Shown: positions 7,485 through 21,601 of the stretch, piece after piece | Position numbering within the stretch: the first letter of the stretch is position 1 | How the letters are laid out: every line of letters begins with the position of its first letter | NCBI GenBank assembly: GCA_964552785.1 | Contig: CAZKIC010000001.1 | Span: 1-27,858 of the forward strand | Direction: 5' to 3' | Length of the DNA stretch: 27,858 nt | DNA from: an uncultured archaeon | GTDB lineage: Archaea; EX4484-52; CAZKIC01 | Translations under genes and position numbers: made by a program | Notes under the pieces: generated by a model | Told to the model about the DNA's origin: nothing | The model's input: the letters and a program-made list of their open reading frames with translations, nothing else | Database searches by the model: none

Positions 7485-8715
7485 AAAATACATGAAAAAA
7501 GGAGAAGAGTTATATAAGAGTTCAATAGAGATACTTAAGCAGGTTCAAATGGAAAATGGAGGGTGTTTAGCTACACCACCAGGACAAAGATATCCTTATG
7601 TGTATCCGAGAGATCATGCTGTTTGTATTCTTGGTTTTTTATCTGCAGGAATGTACAAAAACGCTAGAAAAGGTATTGAGTTCACATTAAAAGCCCAACT
7701 TGAAAATGGAGCGTTTCCTCAAAGATACGACAAGAACGGAAAGGATGCATCATATAAACCAATACAGCTTGACGGCTCAGGACTTATACTTTATGCACTC
7801 TCAAAATACGTTCAAAAAACAAAAGATTTTGAACTTGTAGAGAAATACTGGGACAAAATAAACAAGGCTATAGATTATATACAGAAAAACCTGAAAGAAG
7901 AGAAGAATCTTGTGTATACTCCGAATGCCATACATGAGTTCCCCCCTATAGAGAATGGCCTTGAGATATACACCAACTCTGTTGTGTGTGGAGGACTAAA
8001 AGAGATGGCGGAAGTTGCCAAGATGCTTGAATACAATAATCACCAATTCATAAATGGACAGAGATCAAACTGGGTGGGTCTATACAAAACAATATATGGC
8101 GGAATAAACACATATATGTGGAATTCTCGCCTTAATTCATTCATAAAGACTATCAGATTAAATGAAAGCAGTTCTATAGATGAAGATCCGGACGCATCGA
8201 CACTTGCTTTATCAGAATACGAAGTTCTGAAAGATTCTGATGAAAAAATGAAGAAAAACGTAGAAAGATTAAAAAAAGAGTTGTGGCACAAGAAACTTGG
8301 CGGATTGTGCAGATATCCAAAATATATAGGCAGGAACAATGGCGGATGGGGTCCTTGGCCTCATTTTACTTTGATGCTCGCAAAGCACTACTTAAGATCC
8401 GGAAACATAAAAGAAGCTGAAAAGTGCATAAAGTGGGTTATTGACAACTCTTTTGAGAATAAGATTCCGGAACATTTGGCAACAAAAGAAGACTTTGAGG
8501 AGTATTACCACGATTATATGGAAGCAGGGGTCTTAAGACCTGACAGAGTGATAATGTTAGAAAACGCAAAAAAACATCCTCTTTTCAAGAAAGGTATTGT
8601 ACATGTCATAGAACCTTTAGCATGGCCACATGCAGAATTCATCATGACATGGAATTTATACAAAGAAACTCTTGAAAGACAAAAAAGAAAAGGAAAAATA
8701 GTATCTATATTCTAA
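7477..8715 (+). CDS. GH15-like (glucoamylase/trehalase-type) six-hairpin glycoside hydrolase
   Basis: YPYVYPRD, QLDGSG, PDAS, GGLCRY, PWPHFTL, IPEH and PLAWPHA motifs. ATG 7477 follows GGAGG and overlaps the mpgP stop by 8 nt; the track start at 7384 is too early. Confidence 0.8.
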   Translation: MNKKYMKKGEELYKSSIEILKQVQMENGGCLATPPGQRYPYVYPRDHAVCILGFLSAGMYKNARKGIEFTLKAQLENGAFPQRYDKNGKDASYKPIQLDGSGLILYALSKYVQKTKDFELVEKYWDKINKAIDYIQKNLKEEKNLVYTPNAIHEFPPIENGLEIYTNSVVCGGLKEMAEVAKMLEYNNHQFINGQRSNWVGLYKTIYGGINTYMWNSRLNSFIKTIRLNESSSIDEDPDASTLALSEYEVLKDSDEKMKKNVERLKKELWHKKLGGLCRYPKYIGRNNGGWGPWPHFTLMLAKHYLRSGNIKEAEKCIKWVIDNSFENKIPEHLATKEDFEEYYHDYMEAGVLRPDRVIMLENAKKHPLFKKGIVHVIEPLAWPHAEFIMTWNLYKETLERQKRKGKIVSIF

Positions 8716-8742: not shown

Positions 8743-8774
8743 TATCGGCACCCCTCAACAACAAACTATATAAA
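8743..8774 (+). promoter_or_regulatory. Promoter with TATCGGCA-N16-TATATAAA architecture (nuclease operon)
   Basis: TATCGGCA 8743-8750, TATATAAA 8767-8774, ATG at 8803. Confidence 0.75.
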
Positions 8775-8802
8775 GTAAACAGCAGAAATAAACATAGATA
8801 AC

Positions 8803-9984
8803 ATGGTATTGTATTCTCATTCCAGAATAGGGACCTTTGAACAATGCAAGTTAAAATACAAGTACAAATACATAGACAAAATAGAACCGCCTTTAGGACA
8901 ATCAATAGAGGCTTTCATGGGAACATTAGTTCATGAAACTTTAGAGAAATTATTCAAAGATCTTAAATTCCAAAAACAAAATACTTTGGAAGAGTTACTG
9001 GATTTCTTCGAAAGATCATGGAAAGAAAATTGGAATGACTCAATATTCTTCGCAAGAGAAGAGTTCAAAGAAGAGAACTTCAAAGAAATGGGTAAAAAAT
9101 ACATCGCGGATTTCTTCAACAAACACCACCCATTCAACAAAGACAGAACTTTAGGATTGGAGATGGAAGTAAATCTGGATTTAAACGGGGATGGAAGATA
9201 CACGTTAGTGGGCTATATAGACAGGCTGTCAGAAAAAGATGGAGTAATAGAGATCCAGGATTATAAGACCTCGAACACATTGCCGACACAGGAAAATATA
9301 GATAAAGACAGGCAACTTGCTTTATATTCTATTGCTGTAAAGAACATGTATCCTTTCGCCAAGAAAATAAACTTGGTCTGGCATTATCTTGCATTTAACC
9401 AAACTCTGACAACAACAAAAACAGAAAAAGAACTTGAAGAAATAAAAAAAGAAATAATAAGCAAGATAGATCTCATTGAGAATGAAAAGAATTTCGAACC
9501 AAAAGAATCAACACTTTGCGACTGGTGTGAATTCCAGCCTATTTGTCCATTAAGAAAGCATCTTTTTAAGACAAAACACATGGAAATAAATGAATTTCTG
9601 GGGGAAGATGGTGTCAAACTGGTAAATGATTATGAAAAAACAAAAGAAGAGCTGGACAGAATAGAGGAAAAGCTGGAAAAGATAAAGGAAGCATTATTTT
9701 CTTATTCCGAGAAACATCATGTTGACAATATAGTTGGAAGTAATGCAATCGCACGCCTCAGAAAATACAAAAACATCAAATTCCCAAACAAAGGAGAATC
9801 AGGGAGAGATTCTGTAGAAAATATAATCAAAAAATCTGGACTGTGGGAAAGATTCTCAACTCTGGATACATTCTCACTATCAAGATCGATACAGGAAGGG
9901 CAAATACCTGAAGAAGTCATATTAAACCTGAAAGACTTTGTATCTGTATCAGAAACAAAAAGAATATACTTAAGTAAAAAATAA
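8803..9984 (+). CDS. PD-(D/E)XK nuclease, RecB/AddB/Cas4-like, with 4-Cys Fe-S staple and C-terminal extension
   Basis: YSHSRIGTFEQC, GTLVHETLE, GYIDRL, IQDYKTS, QLALY, CDWCEFQPICP. Confidence 0.88.
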   Translation: MVLYSHSRIGTFEQCKLKYKYKYIDKIEPPLGQSIEAFMGTLVHETLEKLFKDLKFQKQNTLEELLDFFERSWKENWNDSIFFAREEFKEENFKEMGKKYIADFFNKHHPFNKDRTLGLEMEVNLDLNGDGRYTLVGYIDRLSEKDGVIEIQDYKTSNTLPTQENIDKDRQLALYSIAVKNMYPFAKKINLVWHYLAFNQTLTTTKTEKELEEIKKEIISKIDLIENEKNFEPKESTLCDWCEFQPICPLRKHLFKTKHMEINEFLGEDGVKLVNDYEKTKEELDRIEEKLEKIKEALFSYSEKHHVDNIVGSNAIARLRKYKNIKFPNKGESGRDSVENIIKKSGLWERFSTLDTFSLSRSIQEGQIPEEVILNLKDFVSVSETKRIYLSKK

Positions 9985-10009
9985 TAAAGATTTGCCCTAA
10001 TAGGGGTAT

Positions 10010-10720
10010 ATGGATGAGAGATATAAGCCAATGTTGGCATTAAAGGACATAACAGAAGAATCTCTTAAAGAATTAAATAACAAGAAAGTAATAATTATAG
10101 GTCAGGGAGGATTAGGTTCCTGGTCTGCCGAGTTTCTTCTGAGGGCAGGAATATTAAATCTGACTTTAGTGGATGGAGATAAAGTTGAACTCAAGAACAT
10201 ACTAAGGCAAAATTATGATGAACCAAACATAGGTAAATACAAAGTTCAAGCCATGAAAAATAAACTCGAGGGAATAAATTCAAAGGCAAAAATAACCGCT
10301 CTTGATGAATTCCTCACAGAAAAGAACACAGAAATGCTTAGAAATCACGACTTGATAATTGACGGGTGTGATAATTTAAACACAAGATATATAATAAATA
10401 AATTTTGTATAGAAAATGAAATCCCGTGGATTTATGGAACCGCTCTGGCTTATCAGGGGTATGCCAAGATAATAACAAAAGAAACATCCTGTTTGGAATG
10501 TATATACCCCAGAAAGAAGGTTTCAGAGGAGAACATAACAAGCAGGCAAGGTATTTTAATCTCAACAAATGTAACTGTAGCCACTTTGCAGACAAAATTA
10601 GCTTTGGAAGTCTTATTAAACAAAAAAATACATGACGAATTAATATTTATAGACATTGAGAATCATAATATAAACACCCTCAAAGTAAAAAAGAGAAAAG
10701 GGTGTATTTGTAGTGATTAA
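10010..10720 (+). CDS. ThiF/MoeB/HesA (E1-like) adenylyltransferase
   Basis: IIGQGGLGSW nucleotide-binding loop, DGDKVELKNILRQ, DGCDN..TRY.IN, CLEC and C-terminal GCIC. Confidence 0.88.
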   Translation: MDERYKPMLALKDITEESLKELNNKKVIIIGQGGLGSWSAEFLLRAGILNLTLVDGDKVELKNILRQNYDEPNIGKYKVQAMKNKLEGINSKAKITALDEFLTEKNTEMLRNHDLIIDGCDNLNTRYIINKFCIENEIPWIYGTALAYQGYAKIITKETSCLECIYPRKKVSEENITSRQGILISTNVTVATLQTKLALEVLLNKKIHDELIFIDIENHNINTLKVKKRKGCICSD

Positions 10721-12157
10721 ATGACTTTAAAAGTGTTCAACACATTAACAAAGAAAAAGGAAATATTTAAACCACTTAAAGGAAAAACTGTAAATATGTA
10801 TGTTTGTGGAGTAACTGTTTATGATTATACTCATTTGGGGCATTTGAGGAATTATGTTGCTTTTGACGTGATTCACAGATATTTGGAGTATAAAGGATAT
10901 AAAGTAAAAAAAGTACAGAATTTCACAGATATAGACGATAAGATAATAAACAAAGCATCGGAAGAAAAAACAACAGAAAAGGAAGTTGCTGAAAAATTTA
11001 TAGATGCTTATTTTAAGGACATGAAGCCTTTCAATATAAAAGAGGCATATGTTTACCCAAAAGTTACTGAAACAATAGAAGATATAATAGAATTCATTCA
11101 AGACCTCATTGACAAAGGTTATGCATACGAAAAAAACGGAAGCGTATATTTCCGGGTTTCAAAATTCAAAGATTATGGAAAGTTGTCGGGTGTTAATTTA
11201 GAGGAACTTAAAAAACACAGGATAGAGCCAAATCCGGAAAAAGAAGACCCCAGAGATTTCGCTTTATGGAAAAAGGCAACAGATGTTGATTACAAAACTA
11301 ACGCTGCCTTTAAGAGTCCTTGGGGTGATGGAAGGCCCGGATGGCATATTGAGTGTTCTGTAATGGCGTTCAAACATCTCGGAGAGACATTAGACATACA
11401 TGGAGGAGGGAAAGACCTAATATTCCCTCACCACGAGAATGAAATAGCGCAAAGTGAATCAAGAAATGAAAAGCCATTTTCAAAATACTGGATGCATGTT
11501 GAATTTTTGAATATCAACAAAGAAAAGATGTCAAAATCTCTCAAGAATTTTGTCAGTGTGAGGAGCGCTTTATCTAAATACGAACCTGAAGTATTGAGAT
11601 TCCTGTTCTCTTCAAACCATTATCGTCAGCCGATGGATTTTTCAGAAGAAGAAATAGAAAACGCAAAAAGAAATTTTGAAAAAATAAAGAACACATTAAA
11701 CAATCTTTTGTCCGAGATTTCATTCCTTGTTGAGTACCCTGAAAACGACAACAAAGGTGAAAACTCGGACAGAATTGCGGAAGAGAGAGAGAAAATATTA
11801 AAGAAATTTGAGGAAGCAATGGATGATGATTTTAATGCTTCAAAAGCGCTTATTCCTTATTTTGAGTTTGTCAAACTTATAAACCAGTATTTAGAGATTG
11901 AGAAAACAAATATTTCTGTATTACGCACACTCCTCAAAAAATTCTTGATAATGAGTCATATTTATGGAATATTTCAGAATGTGAAGGAATTTAGAACACT
12001 TACAAAGAAAGAGAAAGAATTAATAGAGGAAAGAGAAGTTCTGAGAAAAGAAAAAAGATTTGAAGAAGCTGACAAAAACAGGGAAAAGCTTAAGGATAAA
12101 GGAATAGTGCTTAATGACACAAAAAAAGGAGTCAGATGGTACATAGAACGGAATTAA
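10721..12157 (+). CDS. cysS: Cysteine--tRNA ligase
   Basis: [15 protein letters not shown] (HIGH), [49 protein letters not shown]. Confidence 0.97.
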
Positions 12158-12279
12158 GTCTGCCGTAGTTTGTAGTTATGTTAAAAATATATAAAAGAAG
12201 ATGTTATTTTAATAATTTCTTACCATGTAAAGCAAAATACATATACAGATCATAAATAGATAGATTAAAATATATCAGA

Positions 12280-14781
12280 CTATGCTCTTATAAACTCTCC
12301 GTCATCAGAAAGTTTTACTCCAAACACCTGAGAAACTCCTTTCTGCATCGTTACCCCGTATACTCTTTCCGCATGTTTTACTGTTGCATCATTATGGGAT
12401 ATGACAATAAACTGGCTTTTCTCAAGATTCTTCATTATCATCTCCCCGACTTTTTCAGAATTGGTCTTGTCCAGAGCAGCATCAACCTCATCTAATAAAT
12501 AAAATGGCGAAGGCCTGAAATGTTGTATGGCAAACAAAAAAGATAAAGCGGTAATGGCTTTCTCTCCGCCAGATAAAGAATCTATAGACAATAGCTTCTT
12601 GCCTTTTGGCTGTGCCCTAATAATTAAACCAGAATCAATATTGCCTTCCTCCTCTAATTCCAGTCTTGCCTCCCCATCGGCAACTTCTAGAAATATCTTT
12701 CCGAAATATTCATTTATTTTTTCAAAAGCGTGGTTGAACAGGAACTTCCTTTTCTCCTCTATCTGGTCTATCATATTCAGAATTGTCTTTCTTTCATCCT
12801 GCAACTTCTCTATTCTTTTTAAGAAATTATTATAATCTTCTTCATAATATTCATATTCCTCTATGGCTTTCATGTTAACTAAGCCCGCATTTCTCAAAAA
12901 CACTTCAATCCTTTTAAGTTCCTTCTCAATTTTCTCTACATCCCCTTTCTCTAGATCTTTATTGTCTTTGTATTTTTCAAAATCCTGAGAATATGTCTCA
13001 AACTCGGCTTCAAGACGCGCTTTTTTAATCTGTAAATTCCTGACTTCAACCTCTAAATTAATCATACTTTCATAAGCACTCTTTCTTTCAGTTCTGATTT
13101 TGTCTAGTTCCTCTTCAACAAGCTCTCTTTTCCTCTGTATATCCTTAACTTCATTGCTCTCGTTATCCTCTGCAGCCCTTTTAGACTCTAAAAGCTCGTT
13201 AAGATCCCCTATTTCATTTTTCAATTTATCAATCTCTTCCTGTAAAATTGATTTGCGCCTTTCATACTCTTTAATCTCTGATGTATTGACAGTTGCCAGA
13301 GAGCCTCTCTTTTTGTGAGATCCTCCAACAATAGCACCCGAAGCCTCGAAAAGCTCGCCGTCCAAAGTAACCACTTTTATCCCTTTAATCTTCTTAGCAG
13401 AGTCGACATCCTCTGCTATTAAAGTATCTCTAAATACGTATTCAATAGCGCTCTTATATTTAGGATTATATTGAACCAACTCAGAAGCAAAACCTATAAT
13501 TCCCGGCATTTTTGAAGCCAGTTCTGCCTTGCCGCTCCTTATATGCTTGCCAATCCTATCCAAAGGAATAAACCTCATTCTGCCTAATTTGTTCTCTTTC
13601 AGATATCTAATACCTTCTATAGCTCTTTTCTCGGAATCAACAACAACATCATTCAAATGATTCCCCGCAGCTATTTCTATGGCGGTCTGGAACTTTGAAT
13701 CAACAGTAATTAAATCAGAAATAGCACCGTCATAATCAATAACTCCGTCTAACCTACTCAAGCTTGTATTTGAAGACCCCTGACTCTGGCTTATTGATAA
13801 CAATTTTGAGATCATTTCTTCAATAGTTTCTATCTCCTTTCTATTAACATTAATCTTACTTTCCTTTTCCATTATTTTTTTAGTAATCTCCTCAATATCC
13901 TTCCTGAGATTCTTGTTTATACTTTTAGATATCATCTCGTCCTCTAATTTTTTAATCTCCTCCTCTTTCTTATCAAGAAGGTCATCAAATTTGTTGATAT
14001 TGGATTTCAAAGCATTATACTCATCTTCTTTAATTTTCAAATTCCTCTTGACATTCTCAAATTCTGTCTCTACAACTTTAAGTTTTGTATAAGCTAATTG
14101 TGCCCTAAGAACTGCCTGCCTATCTGTCAATTCCTTTACTTTCAATGCAGCATTTCTCTCCTTCCTTATTTTGTCCAAAAGCTCTTTTTTCTGTTCTAAT
14201 ATAATGTTTGCTTCAGAAATATTTTTTTCTGCACGTTCCAACTCCATCAGACTTTTTTCTTTCTTCTCATTATACTCCTTGACTCCTGCAGCATTATCTA
14301 TTATCGCCCTTCTTTCTTTATGCCGCATCTCTATGACTCTTGTGATGTCTCCTTGCTGAATAATAGACATGCCGTCTGTGTCAAGCCCGATCTTATCAAG
14401 AATCGCCTGAATATTTTCTCTTTTATCTGTTTTTCCGTTGATCTTATAGTAAGACACCCCTCTTCTGTTAACTTTTCTTGAAATAGTTATAACATCTTCA
14501 TCTATATCTATTGCCCTATCGCTATTATCTATTACAAGCTCCACTTCTGCAGTATCTGCCGGCCTCCTTCCGTGCCCTCCATTGTATATTATATGCTCCA
14601 TTCTTTGAGCTCTCATAGACCTTGAGCCTTTACCGAGAACAAAAACCAGTGCATCAACTATATTTGATTTCCCTGAACCGTTGGGGCCAATAACAGCATT
14701 AAATCCAGAATAGAAAGGTATCTCTGTTTTATTTGCGAATGATTTAAATCCTACTGCTGTTAGTTTTGCTATTCTCGCCAT
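12280..14781 (-). CDS. smc: SMC chromosome segregation ATPase with short arms (833 aa)
   Basis: Walker A GPNGSGKSN, Q-loop IQQG, hinge GRMRFIPL and GAIVGG, signature LSGGEK, Walker B LDEVDAALD, ISH. ATG 14781 follows GGGAG. Confidence 0.94.
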   Translation of the reverse strand: MARIAKLTAVGFKSFANKTEIPFYSGFNAVIGPNGSGKSNIVDALVFVLGKGSRSMRAQRMEHIIYNGGHGRRPADTAEVELVIDNSDRAIDIDEDVITISRKVNRRGVSYYKINGKTDKRENIQAILDKIGLDTDGMSIIQQGDITRVIEMRHKERRAIIDNAAGVKEYNEKKEKSLMELERAEKNISEANIILEQKKELLDKIRKERNAALKVKELTDRQAVLRAQLAYTKLKVVETEFENVKRNLKIKEDEYNALKSNINKFDDLLDKKEEEIKKLEDEMISKSINKNLRKDIEEITKKIMEKESKINVNRKEIETIEEMISKLLSISQSQGSSNTSLSRLDGVIDYDGAISDLITVDSKFQTAIEIAAGNHLNDVVVDSEKRAIEGIRYLKENKLGRMRFIPLDRIGKHIRSGKAELASKMPGIIGFASELVQYNPKYKSAIEYVFRDTLIAEDVDSAKKIKGIKVVTLDGELFEASGAIVGGSHKKRGSLATVNTSEIKEYERRKSILQEEIDKLKNEIGDLNELLESKRAAEDNESNEVKDIQRKRELVEEELDKIRTERKSAYESMINLEVEVRNLQIKKARLEAEFETYSQDFEKYKDNKDLEKGDVEKIEKELKRIEVFLRNAGLVNMKAIEEYEYYEEDYNNFLKRIEKLQDERKTILNMIDQIEEKRKFLFNHAFEKINEYFGKIFLEVADGEARLELEEEGNIDSGLIIRAQPKGKKLLSIDSLSGGEKAITALSFLFAIQHFRPSPFYLLDEVDAALDKTNSEKVGEMIMKNLEKSQFIVISHNDATVKHAERVYGVTMQKGVSQVFGVKLSDDGEFIRA

Positions 14782-14832
14782 CAAATCTCCCTAATCTCCC
14801 TATTTGCCTAATTATAATATGAACTTTGAGAG

Positions 14833-14864
14833 TTTATATAGGTTTTCAATAAAGAATGCCGATA
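14833..14864 (-). promoter_or_regulatory. Promoter with TATCGGCA-N16-TATATAAA architecture (smc)
   Basis: Minus-strand TATCGGCA 14864-14857, TATATAAA 14840-14833; ATG at 14781. Confidence 0.75.
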
Positions 14865-14950
14865 CATGTAAGCTCGTATAAACATATTAATCCAATCAAT
14901 AAAGACCAAAACGATAGTTTTAAAAAATATAAGATATATATTACTAATAG

Positions 14951-15505
14951 GTGATTACAATACCCTGGACAGAGTTTGGAACTTTTGAATTTGAGACTGA
15001 TGCATTAAATGAAGTTTATCAAGACTTAAAGAAAAATAAAGGAGAAGAGAAATGGAAATTAATAAATTACCTTAGATCTTTTATATTTCCTGATATAAGC
15101 AACTTAGATAACGATGAAAATAATACATTAACATACACAGCAACAAGAAAAACTATTGAAAATGTATATAGACACATAATAAAAGAACACAATAGAAGAA
15201 AAGAACTGTTGCTCGAACACGAAAGATATACAACAAAAACATACAAAAGAGATGTAGACAGAGGGAAAAAAGAACTGGAAGCATGGAAGACATTAGGGGG
15301 GCCGACAAAATCCCAAGAAGTGAATAACGCAATAGAACAATGGGTTAAATTAAAGGACTTTCTCGAAAAATATGAGAAGTTTATTGAAAGAGCAAACCAG
15401 ATTAACAAAAAATTGGGATTGCCAAGAATTAAAACAGAAAAATTAGAAGAGCAAAAAATAGGAAACCCACAAAGAATAGAAAGAATACAACAAAGCCTTT
15501 TCTAA
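14951..15505 (+). CDS. Hypothetical helical protein (184 aa)
   Basis: Long Lys/Glu-rich ORF with GTG start about 30 nt after TTTAAAAA (14919-14926); no family motif recognised. Confidence 0.72.
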   Translation: MITIPWTEFGTFEFETDALNEVYQDLKKNKGEEKWKLINYLRSFIFPDISNLDNDENNTLTYTATRKTIENVYRHIIKEHNRRKELLLEHERYTTKTYKRDVDRGKKELEAWKTLGGPTKSQEVNNAIEQWVKLKDFLEKYEKFIERANQINKKLGLPRIKTEKLEEQKIGNPQRIERIQQSLF

Positions 15506-15557
15506 GATCAAGACACACATATTAATAAAACTGTAGATTCAATTCTAATGTGATATT

Positions 15558-17045
15558 ATGGCGAATTACAAAAAATTAGACTACATCAAAAACAAAGAAA
15601 TCGGTTCTTACGAAATAAAAGCAATAGTCAAGAAAATAAAACAAACAAAAGGGCCGACATTATTTGAGTTAGAGGACGGAACAACAACATTAACTTGTGC
15701 TGCTTTCTCAAGTCCTGGAAAAAGAACTTTCCCTGAAATTCAGGAAGGGATGTATGTCGAAGCAACCATTCAAATAGAATCAAGAGATGAAAGAAAAAAC
15801 TTCAGCATAAAGGAGATATTCGAGATGACAGAAGCCTCGAAAAAAACTTTTGAAGAAGCCCTGAACAAAGAAAAAGACATACTGGCGGAAACAGAAGAAA
15901 AGCTCCTAATAGTGAATACAAATAACATGCAAAAATTAAAACCCCTGATAAAAAAAATAGCATTCGAGATAAGAAAAGCCGTAATAAATAAACAACCTAT
16001 AATATTGAAACATCACGCTGATGCCGATGGCTATATATCCGCATTAGCTTTAGAAGAATCAATTAAAGGCTTCATGTTCAAAATATATAAAGAAGTGGAC
16101 GAATTCTTAATCTCAAAAAACCCGATGAAATCGCCATTTTATTCTTACAGTGATGCCTTAAAAGATATAAGCAACATCAACAAAACAAAAGAAAGATTTA
16201 ATTCAAAATCCCCTTTAGTTGTTATCTTGGACAACGGCTCTACTGATGAAGATATTCTAGCTTTAAAACGATTAAACATCCACAGTATAAAAACAATAGT
16301 TATAGACCACCATAAACCCTCAAAAGAAGTAGATGATTATCTATACCTGCATTTAAATCCATACAATCTTGGTTTAGACAAAAACATCTCTACAGGTTTA
16401 ATGGCTGTAGAAATTGCTAATCTCATACATCATCTAAAAAATCCAGTTACTTACGCAGCAATAAGCTTAATAGCGGATAAATCAGAAGGAGAAGAGGTTG
16501 ATTTCATTCTAAATAAAGTGAAAAAAGAAGAAATAGAAACATTAGCAGCATGTATAGATTATGATGCATACAATCTCGGCACAATCTCTGAAACCAACAT
16601 AATCTCAACTTTATTAGAAAACAAAGAATTCATAGAAGAACTAAATAAAGAGATTAAGAATAAATTTAATATATTAATGGCAAGATTCAAAAAATACGGA
16701 ACTATAACAACAAAGAACAAAATTAAAATATTGGAATTTGACACGGATTTATATACGGGCCAATTCGACTATCCTCCTCAAGGAAAAGCAACTGGAGTCA
16801 TATTCAGAGAATACGGCAACAAACAAACAGTAGCTCTTGGTTATGGTTCCGACTCCGTGTCTATAAGAATTTCAGAAGAATTAGAAGGAATAACCGTATT
16901 CAGCATAAAAGAACATCTAATTAAAAAATTCCCTGAAGGAAACATTGAAGGAGGGGGGCATGAAAAAGCAGGCACAATAAAATTCCTGAAAGGACTAAAA
17001 GAAGATATAATAAATGAGATAAAAAATTACATTATGAATTATTGA
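15558..17045 (+). CDS. Archaeal RecJ-like DHH phosphoesterase with N-terminal OB fold (COG1107-like)
   Basis: IKQTKGPTLF OB segment; HHADADG, ILDNGS, IDHH, KSPFY and C-terminal GGGHEKAG. Confidence 0.86.
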   Translation: MANYKKLDYIKNKEIGSYEIKAIVKKIKQTKGPTLFELEDGTTTLTCAAFSSPGKRTFPEIQEGMYVEATIQIESRDERKNFSIKEIFEMTEASKKTFEEALNKEKDILAETEEKLLIVNTNNMQKLKPLIKKIAFEIRKAVINKQPIILKHHADADGYISALALEESIKGFMFKIYKEVDEFLISKNPMKSPFYSYSDALKDISNINKTKERFNSKSPLVVILDNGSTDEDILALKRLNIHSIKTIVIDHHKPSKEVDDYLYLHLNPYNLGLDKNISTGLMAVEIANLIHHLKNPVTYAAISLIADKSEGEEVDFILNKVKKEEIETLAACIDYDAYNLGTISETNIISTLLENKEFIEELNKEIKNKFNILMARFKKYGTITTKNKIKILEFDTDLYTGQFDYPPQGKATGVIFREYGNKQTVALGYGSDSVSIRISEELEGITVFSIKEHLIKKFPEGNIEGGGHEKAGTIKFLKGLKEDIINEIKNYIMNY

Positions 17046-17584
17046 TTAAGAATATGTTTAGATCCGTCACCTTTAACACGATTTATAATCTTCCCGGCCA
17101 GTTCTTCAGGAGAATCAAACTCAGAACTTAGAATCAGATCATATCTTGACTTGTCTCCAAAAGTTATTCCGTAAAAATCATGATATCTTTTTTCATTCTC
17201 AGAATCCCTGAATTCCAGAAGCTTTTTTGCTTCTTCAACAGAAATATTGTCTCTGACAGAAACCCTTTTAGCCCTCACATCTAAAGGACAATCCAAAAAA
17301 ACTCTAAAAGAACAGTTGCAAAAAAAAGCCGTAATCCTTCCTTCAAAAACCGCGTTATTATACTTCAATGAAAGTTCTCTCATTTTCTCATCCAGGTACA
17401 TGTCATACTTATCTTCCTTTCTAACTAATTTCGTAAATTCTTCTAAAGACATTCCTTCTTCCTTTGCCATTTCCCTAAAAAGATCTCCGGCAGAAAACGG
17501 TCCCTTCATATTCAGTCTCTTGGCAAGAACTCTGGATAATGTTCCCTTACCACTTCCGGAAACACCATCTATACAAATATTCAT
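17039..17584 (-). CDS. cmk: Cytidylate kinase (archaeal type)
   Basis: MNICIDGVSGSGKGT, SAGDLFREMAKE.GMSLEEF, FEGR, RAKRVSVRD, RY..FYGI. Start at ATG 17584 rather than the track start at 17698. Confidence 0.88.
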   Translation of the reverse strand: MNICIDGVSGSGKGTLSRVLAKRLNMKGPFSAGDLFREMAKEEGMSLEEFTKLVRKEDKYDMYLDEKMRELSLKYNNAVFEGRITAFFCNCSFRVFLDCPLDVRAKRVSVRDNISVEEAKKLLEFRDSENEKRYHDFYGITFGDKSRYDLILSSEFDSPEELAGKIINRVKGDGSKHILNQ

Positions 17585-17648
17585 AACAACACCAAAGAAA
17601 CAATTATGAATATATTGAAGTTTAATTCTATATATATTTAAAAAAAAC

Positions 17649-18209
17649 TCAGAGAATATTGGATAATTCTTCTGCAGCTTTATCCAGGCCATTGTCATGA
17701 TTATAGATAACTTTAACTGTACATCCTGTTAAAACAGAATAAGACATTGCTACCGCCCTGTTGATGTTCTGGTGTAAATGAATCTCCTCTAAAGAATCTC
17801 CATCTCTAACTCTGGATTTGTCCTTATTCCTTCTATTAAATATCTCTTCATCATCCGCCTCAACCAAAACAAACAAATCCGGTTTTAATAAACTGATAAC
17901 ATATTCCGGAAATCCTGACAAAAAACCTTTAGGTGTTTTAATTGAAGCATGGCTGTCTATAAGAATATTCTCATTCCTGGCCATCTCTGCTATTTTCTTT
18001 GCAGTCAACTTCTGGTTCTCTTTTTGCTTTTCCTGAGGCAATTTCCTCAGTTCATCTCTGTCCTTTACCCATCCCTTGTCTTTAGCATTCTCGAACATAA
18101 GAGTTCCGTAATTAACTAATTTATAATCTTTAGAAGACAATTCTAAAGCCCTGCTTATTACTGTGCTCTTTCCTACTCCTGGTATTCCTGCTACTATAAC
18201 TAAAGTCAT
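17649..18209 (-). CDS. adk: Adenylate kinase (archaeal AdkA type)
   Basis: VIVAGIPGVGKST, VNYGTLM, DRDELRKLP, IDSHASIKTPKGFLSGFP. ATG 18209 follows GGTGAGGTGT. Confidence 0.92.
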   Translation of the reverse strand: MTLVIVAGIPGVGKSTVISRALELSSKDYKLVNYGTLMFENAKDKGWVKDRDELRKLPQEKQKENQKLTAKKIAEMARNENILIDSHASIKTPKGFLSGFPEYVISLLKPDLFVLVEADDEEIFNRRNKDKSRVRDGDSLEEIHLHQNINRAVAMSYSVLTGCTVKVIYNHDNGLDKAAEELSNIL

Positions 18210-18333
18210 ACACCTCACCAATATAGATAAATTCCGCAACTTTTATATATATTACACAAATATACATTAGTATTATAAAATTTAAGCCTAAAAATGAATC
18301 TAAAGACTATAAAAAATAAAATGTGAAAAAAAC

Positions 18334-19146
18334 ATGACAGAGAAAAAAGTAGAACTAACAGATGAAGAAATTAAGGAGATAAAATCGCTTCTTGATAAAT
18401 TTGATTCTTTAAAATCAAAAACAAGAGAACTCAAAAATCAAAGAGATAAAGTTATTGAACAGATTAAGAAAGAACTAAAACCAAAAAGAGACGAATTAAA
18501 CAAAGAAGTGGCTATATTAAGATCTAAAATAGAAAGAAACACAAAAAAACTTGAAAAGCTTCTGAAAGAAAAAGGAATAACCGAGAAATCAAAGAACTCT
18601 TTCGCTTTCTTAAAAAAAGAATTGAGACGACTTGAATGGAAAGTTCAGACAGAAGTTCTTTCCATAAAACAAGACGAGAACATTCGCAAGAAAATTGAAG
18701 AAATCGAAAAAAAAATAAAAGACACAGCAGACATAGAACGGATAAAAAGATTCTTAAAAATAGACAATGAGAAAATAGAGCAAGTTAAAAAAGAAGCAGA
18801 CAAATTACATGATTTAATAAAAGAAAAATCTGAAGAAGGGGAGAAATTCCACAAAAAATTGATGGAATTGATGGATGAACTCACAAAACATAAAAAACAA
18901 ATAGAAGAAAAGAAAGACAAGATTGAAGCTTTCAGAAAAGAAAAGAAAAAAGCGAAAACAAGTAGCAGAGCTTCAAAGAGAAAAAGCGAAAAAATAATAA
19001 AACAAAAGGAATACAAACCATCAAAAGAAGACAAAAAGAAAGCTTTGGAAGAAGCAGAACAGCTTTACAAAGACTTCATGGCAGGAAAGAAACTTTCTGG
19101 AGAAGACCTCATCAAAGTACAAGAATATATGAAATCGTTGGACTAA
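18334..19146 (+). CDS. Conserved archaeal coiled-coil protein (COG1340-like)
   Basis: Heptad-rich throughout; RRLEWKVQTEVLS and C-terminal AEQLYKDFMAGKKLSGEDL resemble my recollection of this family. Confidence 0.72.
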   Translation: MTEKKVELTDEEIKEIKSLLDKFDSLKSKTRELKNQRDKVIEQIKKELKPKRDELNKEVAILRSKIERNTKKLEKLLKEKGITEKSKNSFAFLKKELRRLEWKVQTEVLSIKQDENIRKKIEEIEKKIKDTADIERIKRFLKIDNEKIEQVKKEADKLHDLIKEKSEEGEKFHKKLMELMDELTKHKKQIEEKKDKIEAFRKEKKKAKTSSRASKRKSEKIIKQKEYKPSKEDKKKALEEAEQLYKDFMAGKKLSGEDLIKVQEYMKSLD

Positions 19147-19183
19147 CATAACAAAAGATTTCAGATATGTAGAATAACAAGGA

Positions 19184-19612
19184 TCAGCCTAAAATCAATT
19201 GGGATGCACCATACCTCAAACAAGATTCAACTTCTTTTCTTGTAATTTCTCTGTCTCTCAAAATCACAAAATAACCTTTAATATTAATGCCGTTTTGTTT
19301 GAGTGTATTAAATACATCTCCGGAAGCTTTAGATATAATTGACTTATAAACATCCTCCAGTCCTGTACGATCTGCAGAAAGATTAAAGACTAAAACTTTA
19401 CCTCTGTCAACATACACATTACCGTCGCAAGGAAATTCAATGTCTCCCAAACCGTATCTTTCAATCATCTTTTCTCTTCCGGGCACATCAGAAAGATAAA
19501 CCTCCACAATGCCATCCGCATTTTCTTTTGAAAGTGCAATCCAGTGGCCGAAAGGATCTCCCAACTTCCGAACATTATACTCAAATTCCTTAAAAATATA
19601 ATTCCCTTCCAT
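19184..19612 (-). CDS. Hypothetical protein (142 aa)
   Basis: ORF divergent from xpd, with TTTAAAAA about 25-30 nt upstream (19643-19636); no motif recognised. Confidence 0.7.
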   Translation of the reverse strand: MEGNYIFKEFEYNVRKLGDPFGHWIALSKENADGIVEVYLSDVPGREKMIERYGLGDIEFPCDGNVYVDRGKVLVFNLSADRTGLEDVYKSIISKASGDVFNTLKQNGINIKGYFVILRDREITRKEVESCLRYGASQLILG

Positions 19613-19648
19613 AACTATTATTAGCCATAGAAAGATTTTTAAAGCTTA

Positions 19649-19680
19649 TATCGGCACACCACACCAATTAACTATATAAA
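19649..19680 (+). promoter_or_regulatory. Promoter with TATCGGCA-N16-TATATAAA architecture (xpd)
   Basis: TATCGGCA 19649-19656, TATATAAA 19673-19680, ATG at 19703. Confidence 0.75.
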
Positions 19681-19702
19681 ACATACAAATTAATTAAGAA
19701 TA

Positions 19703-21601
19703 ATGACCAGAAAAACAAACAACATGAACGAATATTTTCCATATGATGAAATAAGAAAAGGCCAGGACTCATTCATAAAAATAGCAAAAGACATTATTGA
19801 GAATAAAAGGCATCTTCTTGTCCATGCGCCAACAGGCATAGGAAAAACCGTGGCTGCATTAGTGCCTGCACTACAATACTCTTTAAGAAACAAAAAAAGA
19901 ATTGTTTTCGTAACTCCAAGACACCAACAGCACAAAATAGTCATAGACACAATTAAAAGTATAAACAATAGATGGAACACAAGAATATCGATAACAGATT
20001 TCTTGGGCAGACAAAAGATGTGCAACATGGATGTATCTTTGTTGAGTTCAACAGATTTTAATGCGTTCTGCAAACATCATAGAGAAAACAAAACCTGTCC
20101 ATTCTACAATAAAACTTACAAGGATAAAAAAACAACTCCGGAAGCAGACATATTACTAAAAGAATTACACAATCAGGCTCTATATGGTGAAGATTTAAAA
20201 GAGAGGTCATATAAATTCTGTCCGTATGAGATAAACGTGGAATTAGGCAAGAAAACAGATGTGATAGTAGCGGATTATTATCATATATTCAGCCCGAGAA
20301 TAAGGGAGCACTTTCTTAAGAGACTAAACACAAAATTAGATGATATAATACTAATAGTTGATGAAGCCCACAATCTTCCATCAAGAGCAAGATCTCTATT
20401 CTCATCAAGAACATCATTCTATCAAATCAACCGCGTAAAAGAAGAATTAAAGGATTACAACAAAAATATCTCAAAACTGCTCGATTCAATAAACAAAGAT
20501 CTTATGAAAAAATTCAGAAATAAAAACAATATGAAGATCAATGGAGAATTCTTAGTTGAAAAAACAGACTTTACTGAAACAGTAAATAAATATATTCCAT
20601 ACAACGATTTGCTGGACGAACTATACTCCTACAGCGATATCATACATGAAAAAAAGGAGAGATCCTTTGTATCTGGGTTGACAACATTCCTTGAACTATG
20701 GTCTGAGGAAGATTCTTCTCTAGTAAGACTTGTAAATCTAGATGAAAAAGGTTTTAAATTGTCTTTAGAGTGTTTAGATCCATCTATTATAACAAAAGAT
20801 GTTTTTGAAGAAGTGCATTCTTCGGTATGTATGTCTGCAACATTATTGCCGTTGGAAATGTATTCCGACCTGTTGCAGATACCAAACCCGGCAAAGTTGC
20901 AATTAAAAAGCCCGTTTCCAAAAGAAAACAAAATATCAATAATATTGGATAATGTTACAACAAAATTCAGTATGAGAAACGAAGAAGAATATAAAAACAT
21001 TTCTGAAGAATTAATCAAACTATCTGAGATCATACCAGGAAATATAGGTGTATTCTTTCCTTCTTATTATATAAGAGATGAAATTTTGAGACTGATAAGA
21101 GAGAAAGTAAATAAACATCTATTCATTGAGATACAGGGTTCGACAACAGAGCAAAAGAACAAATTGATGGAAGATTTCAAGAAAGCCTCTGAAAACGGCG
21201 GAGGTATACTAATGGCTGTTGTTGGGGCTAATTTCTCGGAAGGTGTTGACTTTAAAGGAGAATGGATGAATGGAGTAATATTGGTAGGTCTGCCTTTAGA
21301 CCGTCCGGATCTGTTGACAAAATCCTTGATAGATTACTATCAAAACAAATTTAAGAAAGGTTGGGAATATGGATACACATACCCTGCAATGAACAAAGCA
21401 ATACAAGCAATGGGTAGGTGTATAAGGTCAGAAAAAGATAAAGGGGTTATAGTTCTAATGGACGCCAGATACAAAGAAAGACGTTACAGAAATTTATTGC
21501 CTTCAGATTATGAATTCATAGAAAAATCAGATGAAAAAATAAAAGAACTTTTCAAAGAATATATCAAACCAAAAACCACAAGTCTAAAAGGATTCATCTA
21601 G
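19703..21601 (+). CDS. xpd: XPD/Rad3-family Fe-S DNA helicase
   Basis: APTGIGKT; four Fe-S cysteines (GRQKMC, FCK, TCPFY, FCPYE); DEAHNL; SATL; FSEGVDF; QAMGRCIRS. Confidence 0.93.
   Translation: MTRKTNNMNEYFPYDEIRKGQDSFIKIAKDIIENKRHLLVHAPTGIGKTVAALVPALQYSLRNKKRIVFVTPRHQQHKIVIDTIKSINNRWNTRISITDFLGRQKMCNMDVSLLSSTDFNAFCKHHRENKTCPFYNKTYKDKKTTPEADILLKELHNQALYGEDLKERSYKFCPYEINVELGKKTDVIVADYYHIFSPRIREHFLKRLNTKLDDIILIVDEAHNLPSRARSLFSSRTSFYQINRVKEELKDYNKNISKLLDSINKDLMKKFRNKNNMKINGEFLVEKTDFTETVNKYIPYNDLLDELYSYSDIIHEKKERSFVSGLTTFLELWSEEDSSLVRLVNLDEKGFKLSLECLDPSIITKDVFEEVHSSVCMSATLLPLEMYSDLLQIPNPAKLQLKSPFPKENKISIILDNVTTKFSMRNEEEYKNISEELIKLSEIIPGNIGVFFPSYYIRDEILRLIREKVNKHLFIEIQGSTTEQKNKLMEDFKKASENGGGILMAVVGANFSEGVDFKGEWMNGVILVGLPLDRPDLLTKSLIDYYQNKFKKGWEYGYTYPAMNKAIQAMGRCIRSEKDKGVIVLMDARYKERRYRNLLPSDYEFIEKSDEKIKELFKEYIKPKTTSLKGFI

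What the first reader, a model, noticed from the sequence alone, without database searches (positions are those of the whole stretch)
8743..19680. Identical promoter architecture TATCGGCA-N16-TATATAAA upstream of three DNA-maintenance genes: candidate archaeal regulon
Seen: the exact 8-mer TATCGGCA lies exactly 16 nt upstream of an exact TATATAAA box at three intergenic sites: 8743-8774 (+, Fe-S nuclease), 14864-14833 (-, smc) and 19649-19680 (+, xpd). The spacers differ, so this is not a duplication. I did not see it before adk, mpgP, archease, the RecJ-like gene or the AAA operon. A rough base-composition estimate gives about 0.5 copies of the 8-mer by chance in this window, with no expected phasing to TATA. 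Caveat: a fourth copy at 22999-23006 is inside the surface-protein CDS (antisense) and is followed after 16 nt by TATATTTG. Established: archaeal activators such as Ptr2 and the Sulfolobus ara-box factor act from sites just upstream of BRE/TATA. Inference: a GC-rich activator site coordinating DNA repair or chromosome genes, possibly a damage or cell-cycle regulon. I do not know this motif from any described regulator.
Basis: partly seen in the sequence, partly recalled or inferred. Interest (0 to 1): 0.78.

Follow-up and report, generated by a model that had tools for sequence, protein, structure and literature searches.

The report
Conserved upstream motif on repair-gene promoters
In this uncultured DPANN archaeon, the genes for an XPD helicase, a Cas4-like nuclease and SMC each carry the same 8-base element 16 bases upstream of the TATA box; the element recurs in front of the same genes in distant relatives, so it is very probably the binding site of an unknown regulator that controls them together.

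Summary
TATCGGCA occurs 4 times in the window (0.36 expected), and 3 copies lie exactly 16 nt upstream of TATATAAA, in front of a Cas4-like Fe-S nuclease, SMC and XPD. The flanks and two of the three spacer pairs match only at the random level, so these are not duplications.

The window comes from a DPANN archaeon, probably Aenigmatarchaeota. The element is conserved in relatives. T[A/T]TCGGCA lies 16-19 nt upstream of a TATA-like box, in the same orientation, in 5 of 10 orthologous promoters: XPD 3/4, nuclease 1/3, SMC 1/3. It lies in front of none of about 182 neighbouring genes (Fisher p about 1e-7). Intragenic copies match the chance count.

A strict scan of 596 Gb of genomes also found it before two orthologous Bro-N/DinD-like genes whose spacers differ.

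The best reading is an orientation-specific transcription-factor site centred near -50, just upstream of BRE/TATA, defining a small genome-maintenance regulon. This position favours activation. The regulator, the sign of regulation and the signal (damage or cell cycle) are all unknown. No regulator gene is evident in the window.

This is a new member of a known kind of element. I found no description of this motif in the held literature.

The parts
8743..8750 (+). Motif copy 1 (TATCGGCA), upstream element of the nuclease promoter
   Evidence: The orthologous promoter in L254 keeps TATCGGCA-N16-TAAATAAG.
8767..8774 (+). TATA box TATATAAA of the nuclease promoter (preceded by AAC); 28 nt to the ATG, so a very short leader or none
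   Evidence: The distance to the start codon is read from the sequence; the role as TATA box is inferred.
8803..9984 (+). PD-(D/E)XK / Cas4-like nuclease, 393 aa, with the four cysteines expected of a Cas4/AddB-type Fe-S cluster
   Evidence: PDDEXK_1 3e-36, Cas_Cas4 1e-6; cas4, AddB nuclease-domain hits; DPANN orthologues, at most 56% identity.
14857..14864 (-). Motif copy 2 (TATCGGCA on the minus strand), upstream element of the SMC promoter
   Evidence: The SMC orthologue in L257 has TTTCGGCA-N16-TTTATATA.
14833..14840 (-). TATA box TATATAAA of the SMC promoter (preceded by ACC); 51-nt leader containing a doubled Shine-Dalgarno-like TAGGGAGAT
12280..14781 (-). SMC, 833 aa from the ATG at 14781
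   Evidence: SMC_N 2e-67, SMC_hinge 7e-30; best named homologues are Aenigmarchaeota SMC.
19649..19656 (+). Motif copy 3 (TATCGGCA), upstream element of the XPD promoter; lies between two divergent promoters
   Evidence: Conserved in front of XPD in L252, L261 and L270. Identical in a 99.9% identical contig, L251.
19673..19680 (+). TATA box TATATAAA of the XPD promoter (preceded by AAC); 22 nt to the ATG at 19703, as expected for a leaderless mRNA
19703..21601 (+). XPD/Rad3-family helicase, 632 aa (625 aa if started at 19724, as in the JGI gene call)
   Evidence: DEAD_2, HBB, Helicase_C_2.
19636..19643 (-). TATA-like box TTTAAAAA of the divergent promoter for the 142-aa orphan ORF (19184-19612, minus strand). 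It lies 5 nt from the motif and 23 nt from that ORF's ATG.
   Evidence: sequence. A similar arrangement occurs in L252, where TGCCGATA is followed after about 1 nt by TTTTATATA of a divergent gene. The role as a promoter is inferred.
22999..23006 (+). Fourth TATCGGCA copy, inside and antisense to the surface-protein gene, followed by TATATTTG. Most likely a chance copy and not part of the system.
   Evidence: Across 204 kb, intragenic copies of T[AT]TCGGCA number 10 against about 9 expected by chance, and no ORF follows this copy.

Best explanation
T[A/T]TCGGCA is the recognition site of an unidentified sequence-specific DNA-binding protein.

It lies in one fixed orientation, 16 nt (range 16-19) upstream of the TATA box. 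That places it at roughly -55 to -48 from the transcription start, just upstream of the BRE.

From there the bound factor most likely contacts or helps recruit TBP/TFB and activates transcription. This would co-regulate a small set of genome-maintenance genes: XPD helicase as the core member, a Cas4-like Fe-S nuclease and SMC in this organism, and a Bro-N/DinD-like gene in related lineages.

Shown: the sites exist, they are far beyond chance, they are not duplications, they are conserved in front of orthologues while the surrounding sequence is not, and they are absent from neighbouring promoters.

Inferred: protein binding, activation rather than repression, and the physiological signal (DNA damage or the cell cycle).
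For: 1. Window statistics: 4 copies against 0.36 expected, with 3 at exactly N16 from TATATAAA.

2. Flanks match at random-level identity, so there was no duplication.

3. Phylogenetic footprints, with unrelated spacers:
- XPD, L252 (63% identity): TATCGGCA-N16-TATATAAT. This is the only ATCGGCA in 21.9 kb.
- XPD, L261 (44%): TTTCGGCA-N16-TTTATAAA.
- XPD, L270 (42%): TATCGGCA-N18-CTTATAAA.
- Nuclease, L254 (56%, same assembly as L252): TATCGGCA-N16-TAAATAAG.
- SMC, L257 (53%): TTTCGGCA-N16-TTTATATA. It shares the 12-mer TTTCGGCACGCA with the XPD site of L261.

4. Specificity. In 203.6 kb (the window plus 10 loci fetched by protein identity), all 8 promoter-positioned copies precede XPD, the nuclease or SMC. 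None precedes any of about 182 other genes. The 10 intragenic copies equal the chance expectation. Fisher test, 5/10 against 0/182: p = 1.2e-7. For exact 8-mers only, 3/10 against 0/182: p = 1e-4.

5. Collection scan. An exact-pattern scan of 596 Gb of genomes gave 31 bacterial hits with no promoter context (the comparable metagenome hits were mostly inside long open frames) and 4 archaeal hits, all intergenic, correctly oriented and 20-77 nt from a start codon. Two of these precede orthologous Bro-N/DinD-like genes (57% identity) whose promoters share only the motif and the TATA box.

6. The A/T box after the motif ends 19-28 nt before the ATG in 7 of the 12 sites. This is the geometry expected of leaderless archaeal promoters, so these boxes are likely the real TATA boxes.

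7. The orientation relative to the gene is the same in all 12 sites.
Against: - No binding protein was identified. Nothing in the window has a recognisable DNA-binding domain.
- Conservation is incomplete. The element is missing from the nuclease promoters of L001 and L262, the SMC promoters of L260 and L264, and the XPD promoter of L266.
- Other DNA-metabolism genes sampled lack it: the RecJ/HAN-like gene, topoisomerase VI, NreA, ScpA/B, a Cas4 paralogue with a HerA-like gene, and AP endonuclease.
- The loci were chosen around the three gene families, so the size and composition of the regulon are unknown.
- Spacing varies by 2-3 nt in one relative.
- At two XPD loci the motif abuts the TATA/BRE of a divergent gene, which would also fit a repressor or a dual regulator.
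- Two of the four archaeal scan hits (L141, pilin-like; L145, small ORF) could be chance. My rough estimate, not a tool result, is about one chance archaeal promoter hit for that scan.
Confidence: 0.72

Rival explanations
1. The same protein-binding site acts as an operator for a repressor, or for a dual regulator. The bound factor would block or distort BRE/TATA, or repress the divergent gene whose TATA box abuts the motif, and would release the genes on a signal, as LexA does.
For: In the window the motif is 5 nt from the TTTAAAAA box of the divergent 142-aa ORF. In L252 it is about 1 nt from the TTTTATATA box of a divergent gene. From general knowledge, many archaeal regulators repress or activate depending on where their site lies.
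Against: Relative to the conserved target genes, the site lies upstream of BRE/TATA. Archaeal repressors usually overlap or follow the TATA box or the start site. The nuclease sites (window and L254) have no divergent gene. The divergent partners are not conserved: a 142-aa orphan, a 345-aa protein, a 241-aa PD-(D/E)XK protein and a 210-aa protein.
Confidence: 0.18
2. The element marks a promoter class read by an alternative basal factor, such as a TFB or TBP paralogue or an associated subunit, rather than by a classical regulator.
For: The fixed orientation and near-fixed distance to the TATA box resemble a core-promoter architecture. In the window all three promoters also share the same CTATATAAA box.
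Against: From general knowledge, known TFB contacts (BRE) end about 6-7 bp upstream of the TATA box, whereas this element starts 16 bp upstream. In relatives the TATA boxes differ (TTTATATA, TTTATAAA, TAAATAAG, CTTATAAA) while the 8-mer stays the same. No TFB or TBP paralogue could be examined.
Confidence: 0.06
3. A generic promoter element, a compositional artefact, or a chance co-occurrence.
For: The TATA part is a common archaeal promoter sequence. The 8-mer also occurs inside genes.
Against: Probability about 2e-13 for the window alone. The element is absent from about 182 other genes, including ribosomal-protein operons. It is conserved at orthologous promoters with unrelated spacers. No shuffle reproduced the counts.
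Confidence: 0.02
4. A non-transcriptional chromosomal site, for example a loading or binding site for SMC, Orc1/Cdc6 or a nucleoid protein, that happens to sit in intergenic DNA.
For: One target is SMC itself. In Sulfolobales an Orc1/Cdc6 paralogue binds short promoter motifs (PMC6061795).
Against: A strict orientation and a 16-19 nt distance to the TATA box of a specific downstream gene are not expected of a structural chromosomal site. The element follows the genes across non-syntenic loci.
Confidence: 0.02

Closest known systems
Sulfolobales DNA-damage-response element 5'-ANTTTC-3', bound by the Orc1-2 regulator (PMC6061795)
   Same: A short, non-palindromic promoter motif shared by a set of genes linked to genome maintenance and bound by one global regulator. 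Mutating the motif abolishes regulation. It is the only well-described archaeal DNA-damage regulon, and it includes pili genes. One of the scan hits here (L141) precedes a pilin-like gene.
   Different: The sequence is unrelated (ANTTTC against T[A/T]TCGGCA). The phylum differs (Thermoproteota against DPANN). The targets differ: ups, ced and tfb3 there; XPD, a Cas4-like nuclease, SMC and Bro-N here. The position there is given as -23 to -55 from the ATG, not at a fixed distance upstream of the TATA box. No Orc1 paralogue or any other factor has been linked to the present motif.
Archaeal upstream activating sites: Ptr2 of Methanocaldococcus jannaschii, TFB-RF1 of Pyrococcus furiosus, the Sulfolobus ara-box, the GvpE UAS of haloarchaea (from my own knowledge of the literature)
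   Same: The position is immediately upstream of BRE/TATA. The proposed mode of action is recruitment of TBP or TFB. The element is orientation- and distance-dependent relative to the core promoter.
   Different: The sequences are unrelated. Ptr2 and other Lrp-type sites are palindromic and often paired, whereas this element is a single asymmetric 8-mer. Those systems control metabolic or gas-vesicle genes, not genome-maintenance genes. Activation has not been shown here.
Bacterial LexA SOS box
   Same: One cis-element placed before several DNA-repair genes, and also before mobile-element or Bro-N/DinD-type genes. NCBIfam gives a weak DinD-family match for the Bro-N protein.
   Different: The SOS box is a palindromic operator that overlaps the promoter and is bound by a self-cleaving repressor. 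This element is asymmetric, lies upstream of the core promoter, and is in an archaeon with eukaryote-like basal transcription.
Eukaryotic E2F sites (TTTSSCGC) on S-phase and DNA-repair genes
   Same: A short T-rich-then-GC element (compare TTTCGGCA) upstream of genes for chromosome maintenance. This would fit a cell-cycle reading.
   Different: The resemblance is recalled from memory and is partial. No E2F/DP-type protein was sought or found, and the similarity has no statistical support.

Membership tests
Archaeal transcription-factor binding site upstream of BRE/TATA (UAS-type element) | Located in intergenic DNA at a defined short distance upstream of a TATA box that is itself correctly placed relative to the gene start | tested here: met
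   12 of 12 sites have an A/T box 16-19 nt downstream of the 8-mer. In 7 of them the box ends 19-28 nt before the ATG.
Archaeal transcription-factor binding site upstream of BRE/TATA (UAS-type element) | Conserved at orthologous promoters while the neighbouring bases diverge (phylogenetic footprint) | tested here: met
   Present in 5 of 10 orthologous promoters (XPD 3/4, nuclease 1/3, SMC 1/3) with unrelated spacers, and in the Bro-N pair L149/L151.
Archaeal transcription-factor binding site upstream of BRE/TATA (UAS-type element) | Restricted to a subset of promoters, i.e. not a general promoter element | tested here: met
   Found at 0 of about 182 other genes in 10 loci. Intragenic copies are at chance level.
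Archaeal transcription-factor binding site upstream of BRE/TATA (UAS-type element) | Specific binding by a protein, with an effect on transcription | not testable with these tools
   This needs EMSA or footprinting and in-vitro transcription or reporter assays. No candidate factor is evident in the window.
Sulfolobales Orc1-2 DNA-damage-response element | Motif 5'-ANTTTC-3' within a roughly 20-bp consensus AATAGTTTCRGWDTACTCWS | tested here: not met
   The conserved core here is T[A/T]TCGGCA. The L257 and L261 variant (TTTCGGCA, preceded by C or T) does contain an ANTTTC-like TTTC, but the conserved GGCA and the fixed N16-to-TATA geometry have no counterpart there.
Sulfolobales Orc1-2 DNA-damage-response element | Bound by an Orc1/Cdc6 paralogue induced by DNA damage | not tested
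   No Orc1/Cdc6 gene lies in the window or in the fetched loci, and no expression data exist.
BRE/TATA core promoter element | Contacted by TFB or TBP, within about 7 bp upstream of the TATA box, and present at most promoters | tested here: not met
   The 8-mer ends 16 bp upstream of the TATA box and is absent from about 182 other genes.
Dispersed repeat / miniature mobile element / segmental duplication | Sequence similarity that extends beyond the motif into the flanks and spacer | tested here: not met
   Flank identity is 22-35% against 30% expected at random. Spacer identity is 31-69%.
Bacterial LexA-type SOS operator | Palindromic operator overlapping the promoter or start site | tested here: not met
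   The 8-mer is not palindromic, occurs as a single copy per promoter, and lies upstream of the core promoter.

The most novel reading that the evidence does not exclude
T[A/T]TCGGCA at about -50 is the response element of a so far unknown activator that drives a DNA-damage or cell-cycle programme in Aenigmatarchaeota.

The programme would couple XPD to a Cas4-like Fe-S nuclease, possibly working as a helicase-nuclease pair, and to SMC. Accessory Bro-N/DinD-like genes in variable genome regions would have acquired the same element to sense that programme.

This would be the first regulon defined in any DPANN archaeon, and only the second genome-maintenance regulon known in Archaea after Orc1-2 of Sulfolobales.
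Probability: 0.35. Interest if true: 0.8.

Novelty: new member of a known kind. Interest (0 to 1): 0.62.

Why it matters
I found no published description of gene regulation in DPANN archaea. Searches of the held literature found no promoter motif or regulon for this group.

In Archaea as a whole, the one well-described regulon for genome maintenance that I know of and found is the Orc1-2 system of Sulfolobales.

A conserved, highly specific element in front of XPD, a Cas4-like nuclease and SMC offers three things:
- a concrete DNA bait for finding the regulator;
- a way to enumerate co-regulated genes in metagenome-assembled genomes;
- a functional hint that archaeal XPD, whose cellular role is still debated, works together with a Fe-S PD-(D/E)XK nuclease. 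In L261 XPD also lies divergently beside another PD-(D/E)XK protein.

The same element on accessory Bro-N genes suggests that mobile or variable genes may use the same signal.

Tried and rejected
- **Literature search for the raw 8-mer:** it returned only primer and oligonucleotide matches.
- **Broad viral-contig scan with a variable gap:** an apparent excess at gap 16 came from one redundant phage family. The strict pattern on viral contigs hit one coding family only (8 near-identical contigs) plus one unrelated contig. Both results are chance.
- **Strict-pattern scan of metagenome contigs:** 40 hits, most lying inside long open reading frames; a handful lay in short open stretches but showed no archaeal promoter context. 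Only L183 was clearly archaeal, and it has the same sequence as L141. The other contigs of the source organism were not recovered. The window's own contig is not in the DNA collections either.
- **Bro-N relatives in viral contigs:** these are bacterial phage genes with Shine-Dalgarno leaders and no motif.
- **The two small ORFs divergent from the SMC and XPD promoters, as candidate regulators:**
  - No Pfam, NCBIfam or PDB match.
  - Single-sequence AlphaFold models were unusable (pLDDT 51 and 37).
  - The 142-aa ORF has no homologue among 1.84 billion representative proteins beyond its own exact sequence.
  - Neither ORF, nor the 270-aa coiled-coil ORF, has a relative in the related loci.
- **The Bro-N protein as the regulator:** considered unlikely, because the gene lies in a variable region that is missing at that position from the 88%-identical relative L257, which still carries the element on its SMC promoter.
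- **Rfam and tRNA scans of the window:** nothing found, so the element is not part of a known RNA gene.
- **One-mismatch variants of the 8-mer in other window promoters:** none.


Full report
**1. Observation**

The exact 8-mer TATCGGCA occurs four times in the 27,858-base window, at 8743 (+), 14864 (-), 19649 (+) and 22999 (+). Dinucleotide-preserving shuffles give 0.36 copies on average, and none of 100 shuffles reached four.

Three copies are followed after exactly 16 nt by TATATAAA, with no mismatch: 8743-8774 (+), 14833-14864 (-) and 19649-19680 (+). The fourth is followed by TATATTTG.

TATATAAA occurs 12 times in the window. The chance that three or more of those carry the 8-mer at exactly +16 is about 2e-13.

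All three sites also share A-[A/C]-C just before the TATA box.

The 60 nt on either side are 22-35% identical between sites, against 30% expected at random. Spacer pairs are 31, 44 and 69% identical. The sites are therefore independent and not copies of one segment.

**2. Genes and organism**

The downstream genes are:
- a 393-aa PD-(D/E)XK/Cas4-like nuclease. Its four cysteines, one near the N terminus plus CDWCEFQPIC, are those expected of a Cas4/AddB-type Fe-S cluster;
- SMC (SMC_N + hinge);
- an XPD/Rad3 helicase (DEAD_2, HBB, Helicase_C_2).

The window has 34% G+C. Its proteins match DPANN archaea only. The best homologues are 56% (nuclease), 63% (XPD) and 54% (SMC) identical. The named top SMC hits are Aenigmarchaeota. 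The organism is thus a poorly sampled DPANN lineage, probably Aenigmatarchaeota.

A 5.6-kb JGI contig (L251) is 99.9% identical to window 18872-24504 and keeps the XPD site.

No copy of the 8-mer, exact or with one mismatch plus an A/T box, precedes adk, cmk, mpgP, archease, the RecJ/HAN-like gene or the AAA ATPase gene.

The window holds no known RNA family and no tRNA gene.

**3. Promoter geometry**

The TATATAAA box ends 28 nt before the nuclease ATG and 22 nt before the first XPD ATG. These distances are typical of leaderless or nearly leaderless archaeal genes.

The SMC promoter has a 51-nt leader with a doubled Shine-Dalgarno-like TAGGGAGAT.

If the TATA box sits at about -31 to -24, the 8-mer covers about -55 to -48, immediately upstream of where the BRE lies. 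This placement is an inference from standard archaeal promoter architecture.

The orientation of the 8-mer relative to the downstream gene is the same in every case.

At the XPD locus the reverse complement of the motif is 5 nt from a TTTAAAAA box. That box is itself 23 nt from the ATG of a divergent 142-aa ORF.

**4. Conservation at orthologous promoters**

This was the decisive test.

| Gene | Locus | Protein identity | Source | Promoter element |
|---|---|---|---|---|
| XPD | L252 | 63% | ENA REYS20-1 assembly (its nuclease contig is also in GCA_027043765.1) | tTTATCGGCA-aagtgaaggatggttt-TATATAAT; the only ATCGGCA in 21.9 kb |
| XPD | L261 | 44% | GCA_013139905.1 | TTTCGGCA-N16-TTTATAAA, 22 nt before the ATG |
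| XPD | L270 | 42% | ZHAN22-2 | TATCGGCA-N18-CTTATAAA, 23 nt before the ATG |
| XPD | L266 | 44% | GCA_021163205.1 | none; here XPD follows an NreA gene |
| Nuclease | L254 | 56% | same assembly as L252 | TATCGGCA-N16-TAAATAAG, 19 nt before the ATG |
| Nuclease | L001 | 56% | GCA_964545795.1 | none; 35-nt intergenic gap, probably operonic |
| Nuclease | L262/L263 | 50% | GCA_030631965.1 / ZHAN22-2 | none |
| SMC | L257 | 53% | ZHAN22-2; the same SMC protein is also in GCA_023142905.1 (L259) | TTTCGGCA-N16-TTTATATA |
| SMC | L260 | 54% | ZHAN22-2 | none |
| SMC | L264 | 53% | GCA_053998655.1 | none |

The SMC site of L257 shares the 12-mer TTTCGGCACGCA with the XPD site of L261, although the gene and the organism both differ.

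In total, 5 of 10 orthologous promoters carry T[A/T]TCGGCA, and 3 of 10 carry the exact 8-mer. In all five the spacers are unrelated to those in the window.

**5. Specificity**

The sample is the window plus ten loci fetched by protein identity, 203.6 kb in all. In it T[A/T]TCGGCA occurs 18 times on both strands.
- Eight copies are promoter-positioned, and all eight precede XPD, the nuclease or SMC.
- Ten copies are intragenic. None has a canonical TATA box at the right distance (the window copy at 22999 is followed by TATATTTG). Composition predicts about 9 such copies by chance (the expectation is my own calculation).
- None of the roughly 182 other called genes in the ten loci has the element. 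These include ribosomal-protein operons, topoisomerase VI, NreA, ScpA/B, an AP endonuclease, a second Cas4-like gene next to a HerA-like gene, and a RecJ-like DHH protein (gene tables).

Fisher's exact test gives p = 1.2e-7 for 5/10 against 0/182, and p = 1e-4 for the exact 8-mer only. The binomial chance of the orthologue hits is 2e-7 to 2e-11.

The element is therefore neither a generic promoter feature nor a compositional effect.

**6. Collection scans**

The pattern TATCGGCAY-N14-CTATATAAA was scanned over 596 Gb of species-representative genomes and gave 35 hits.
- Thirty-one are bacterial and show no promoter context. In the comparable metagenome scan most hits lie inside long open reading frames.
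- Four are archaeal. All four are intergenic, all read TATCGGCAC, and all are correctly oriented 20-77 nt upstream of a start codon.

The four archaeal hits are:
- L149 and L151. Both precede orthologous Bro-N proteins (Pfam Bro-N 4e-11, a weak NCBIfam DinD match, 57% identical to each other). Their promoters share only the motif and the TATA box.
- L141, from a Micrarchaeia MAG, which precedes a pilin-like gene.
- L145, which precedes a small ORF of unknown function.

L149 is 88% identical in DNA to L257 over 3.3 kb. The two are therefore close relatives, and the Bro-N gene sits in a region that differs between them.

My rough estimate is about one chance archaeal promoter hit for this scan, so L141 and L145 are uncertain.

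The same pattern in metagenome contigs gave 40 hits. Most lie inside long open frames and none of the rest shows an archaeal promoter context, apart from a duplicate of L141. Viral contigs gave only chance hits. The rest of the source genome could not be reached.

**7. Mechanism**

The best-supported model is a protein-binding site. It is a single asymmetric 8-mer in fixed orientation, one and a half to two helical turns upstream of the TATA box, and it is kept at the promoters of particular genes across lineages whose proteins are only 42-63% identical.

This position, upstream of BRE/TATA, is where archaeal activators act. Ptr2, TFB-RF1, the ara-box factor and GvpE are examples from my own knowledge. 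Archaeal repressors usually overlap or follow the TATA box. Activation by recruiting TBP/TFB is therefore the most likely mode. I put it at about 0.5 within a probability of about 0.9 that the element is a transcription-factor site of some kind.

A repressor or dual regulator is the main rival. At two XPD loci the motif abuts the TATA box of a divergent gene. However, those divergent genes are not conserved, and the nuclease sites have no divergent gene at all.

XPD is the most consistent target (4 of 5 lineages including the window). The nuclease and SMC are lineage-dependent targets.

The pairing of XPD with a Fe-S PD-(D/E)XK nuclease, together with a different PD-(D/E)XK protein lying divergent to XPD in L261, suggests that the two may work together. 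This is speculation.

The data do not say whether the signal is DNA damage or the cell cycle.

**8. The regulator**

Nothing in the window has a recognisable DNA-binding domain.

The two small ORFs that are divergent from the SMC and XPD promoters were examined as candidates:
- They have no family or PDB match.
- They give unusable single-sequence structure models.
- They have no relatives in the related loci.
- The 142-aa ORF is an orphan among 1.84 billion representative proteins.

The Bro-N protein is DNA-binding in principle. It is nevertheless an unlikely master regulator, because it is an accessory gene.

**9. Comparison with known systems**

Full-text searches found no description of this motif, and none of any DPANN regulon.

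The nearest functional analogue is the Sulfolobales DNA-damage element ANTTTC bound by Orc1-2 (PMC6061795). The sequence, the targets, the geometry and the phylum all differ.

The element meets the testable criteria for an archaeal upstream regulatory site: position, footprint conservation and specificity. It fails the criteria for BRE/TATA, for a dispersed repeat and for a LexA-type operator.

It is therefore best filed as a new member of a known kind of element.

**10. Verdict**

The interpretation as a candidate regulon is supported by independent comparative evidence. The activator role and the damage or cell-cycle signal remain inferences.

Interest is moderate to high. This is a specific, testable handle on transcription regulation and genome maintenance in a group of archaea for which I could find no description of either.

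Noticed in passing
window 14785-14802 (minus strand, SMC leader): A tandem 9-nt duplication, TAGGGAGAT x2, lies directly upstream of the SMC start codon. It doubles a Shine-Dalgarno-like sequence. The ORF listing starts the ORF at TTG 14784, but an ATG follows at 14781.
   Followed up: no
window 19703 vs 19724: The public JGI gene call for the identical XPD (P0121, 625 aa) starts at the second ATG. The first ATG is 22 nt after the TATA box, which fits a leaderless mRNA and a 632-aa protein.
   Followed up: partly
window 19184-19612 (minus strand): A 142-aa ORF divergent from XPD is an orphan. It has no Pfam, NCBIfam or PDB match. In 1.84 billion representative proteins the only hit at E <= 1e-10 is its own exact sequence. 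Its TTTAAAAA box lies 5 nt from the motif.
   Followed up: yes
spacers of window 8751-8766 and 19657-19672; L257 9819-9834; L261 9955-9970: Four of the twelve spacers are C/A-rich with AACAAC / ACACCAA-like repeats: cccctcaacaacaaac, caccacaccaattaac, cgcaacaccaaaacaa and cgcataacaacaacca. The window's nuclease and XPD spacers are 69% identical. This may be a second, weaker element or simply a BRE-proximal composition.
   Followed up: partly
L254 9637-9930: A non-coding stretch of about 300 nt, visibly richer in G+C than the surrounding contig, lies upstream of the nuclease orthologue. It looks like a structured RNA gene. It was not scanned against Rfam.
   Followed up: no
L149 3300-4792 vs L257 5327-5895: Two close relatives (88% DNA identity over 3.3 kb) differ just after the DUF4921 gene. 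L149 has a Bro-N/DinD-like gene with the motif. L257 has about 570 nt with no ORF at that position. The Bro-N gene therefore behaves as an accessory or mobile gene.
   Followed up: partly
L261 9234-11881; L266 8743-11851: In one relative XPD is divergently paired with a different 241-aa PD-(D/E)XK protein. In another relative XPD directly follows the DNA-repair gene nreA, and there it lacks the motif.
   Followed up: partly
window 7384-7484: The mpgP-like HAD phosphatase ORF (6681-7484) and the GH15-like ORF (7384-8715) overlap by about 100 nt as listed. The true GH15 start is probably a later ATG.
   Followed up: no
L254 7759 and 8533; L270 10306 and 12448: Several intragenic sense-strand copies of TATCGGCA occur in relatives. 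Two lie in one 632-aa gene of unknown function, one inside XPD itself and one in an MtrH-like gene. Their number fits chance, but the pair within one gene may reflect a repeated peptide.
   Followed up: no
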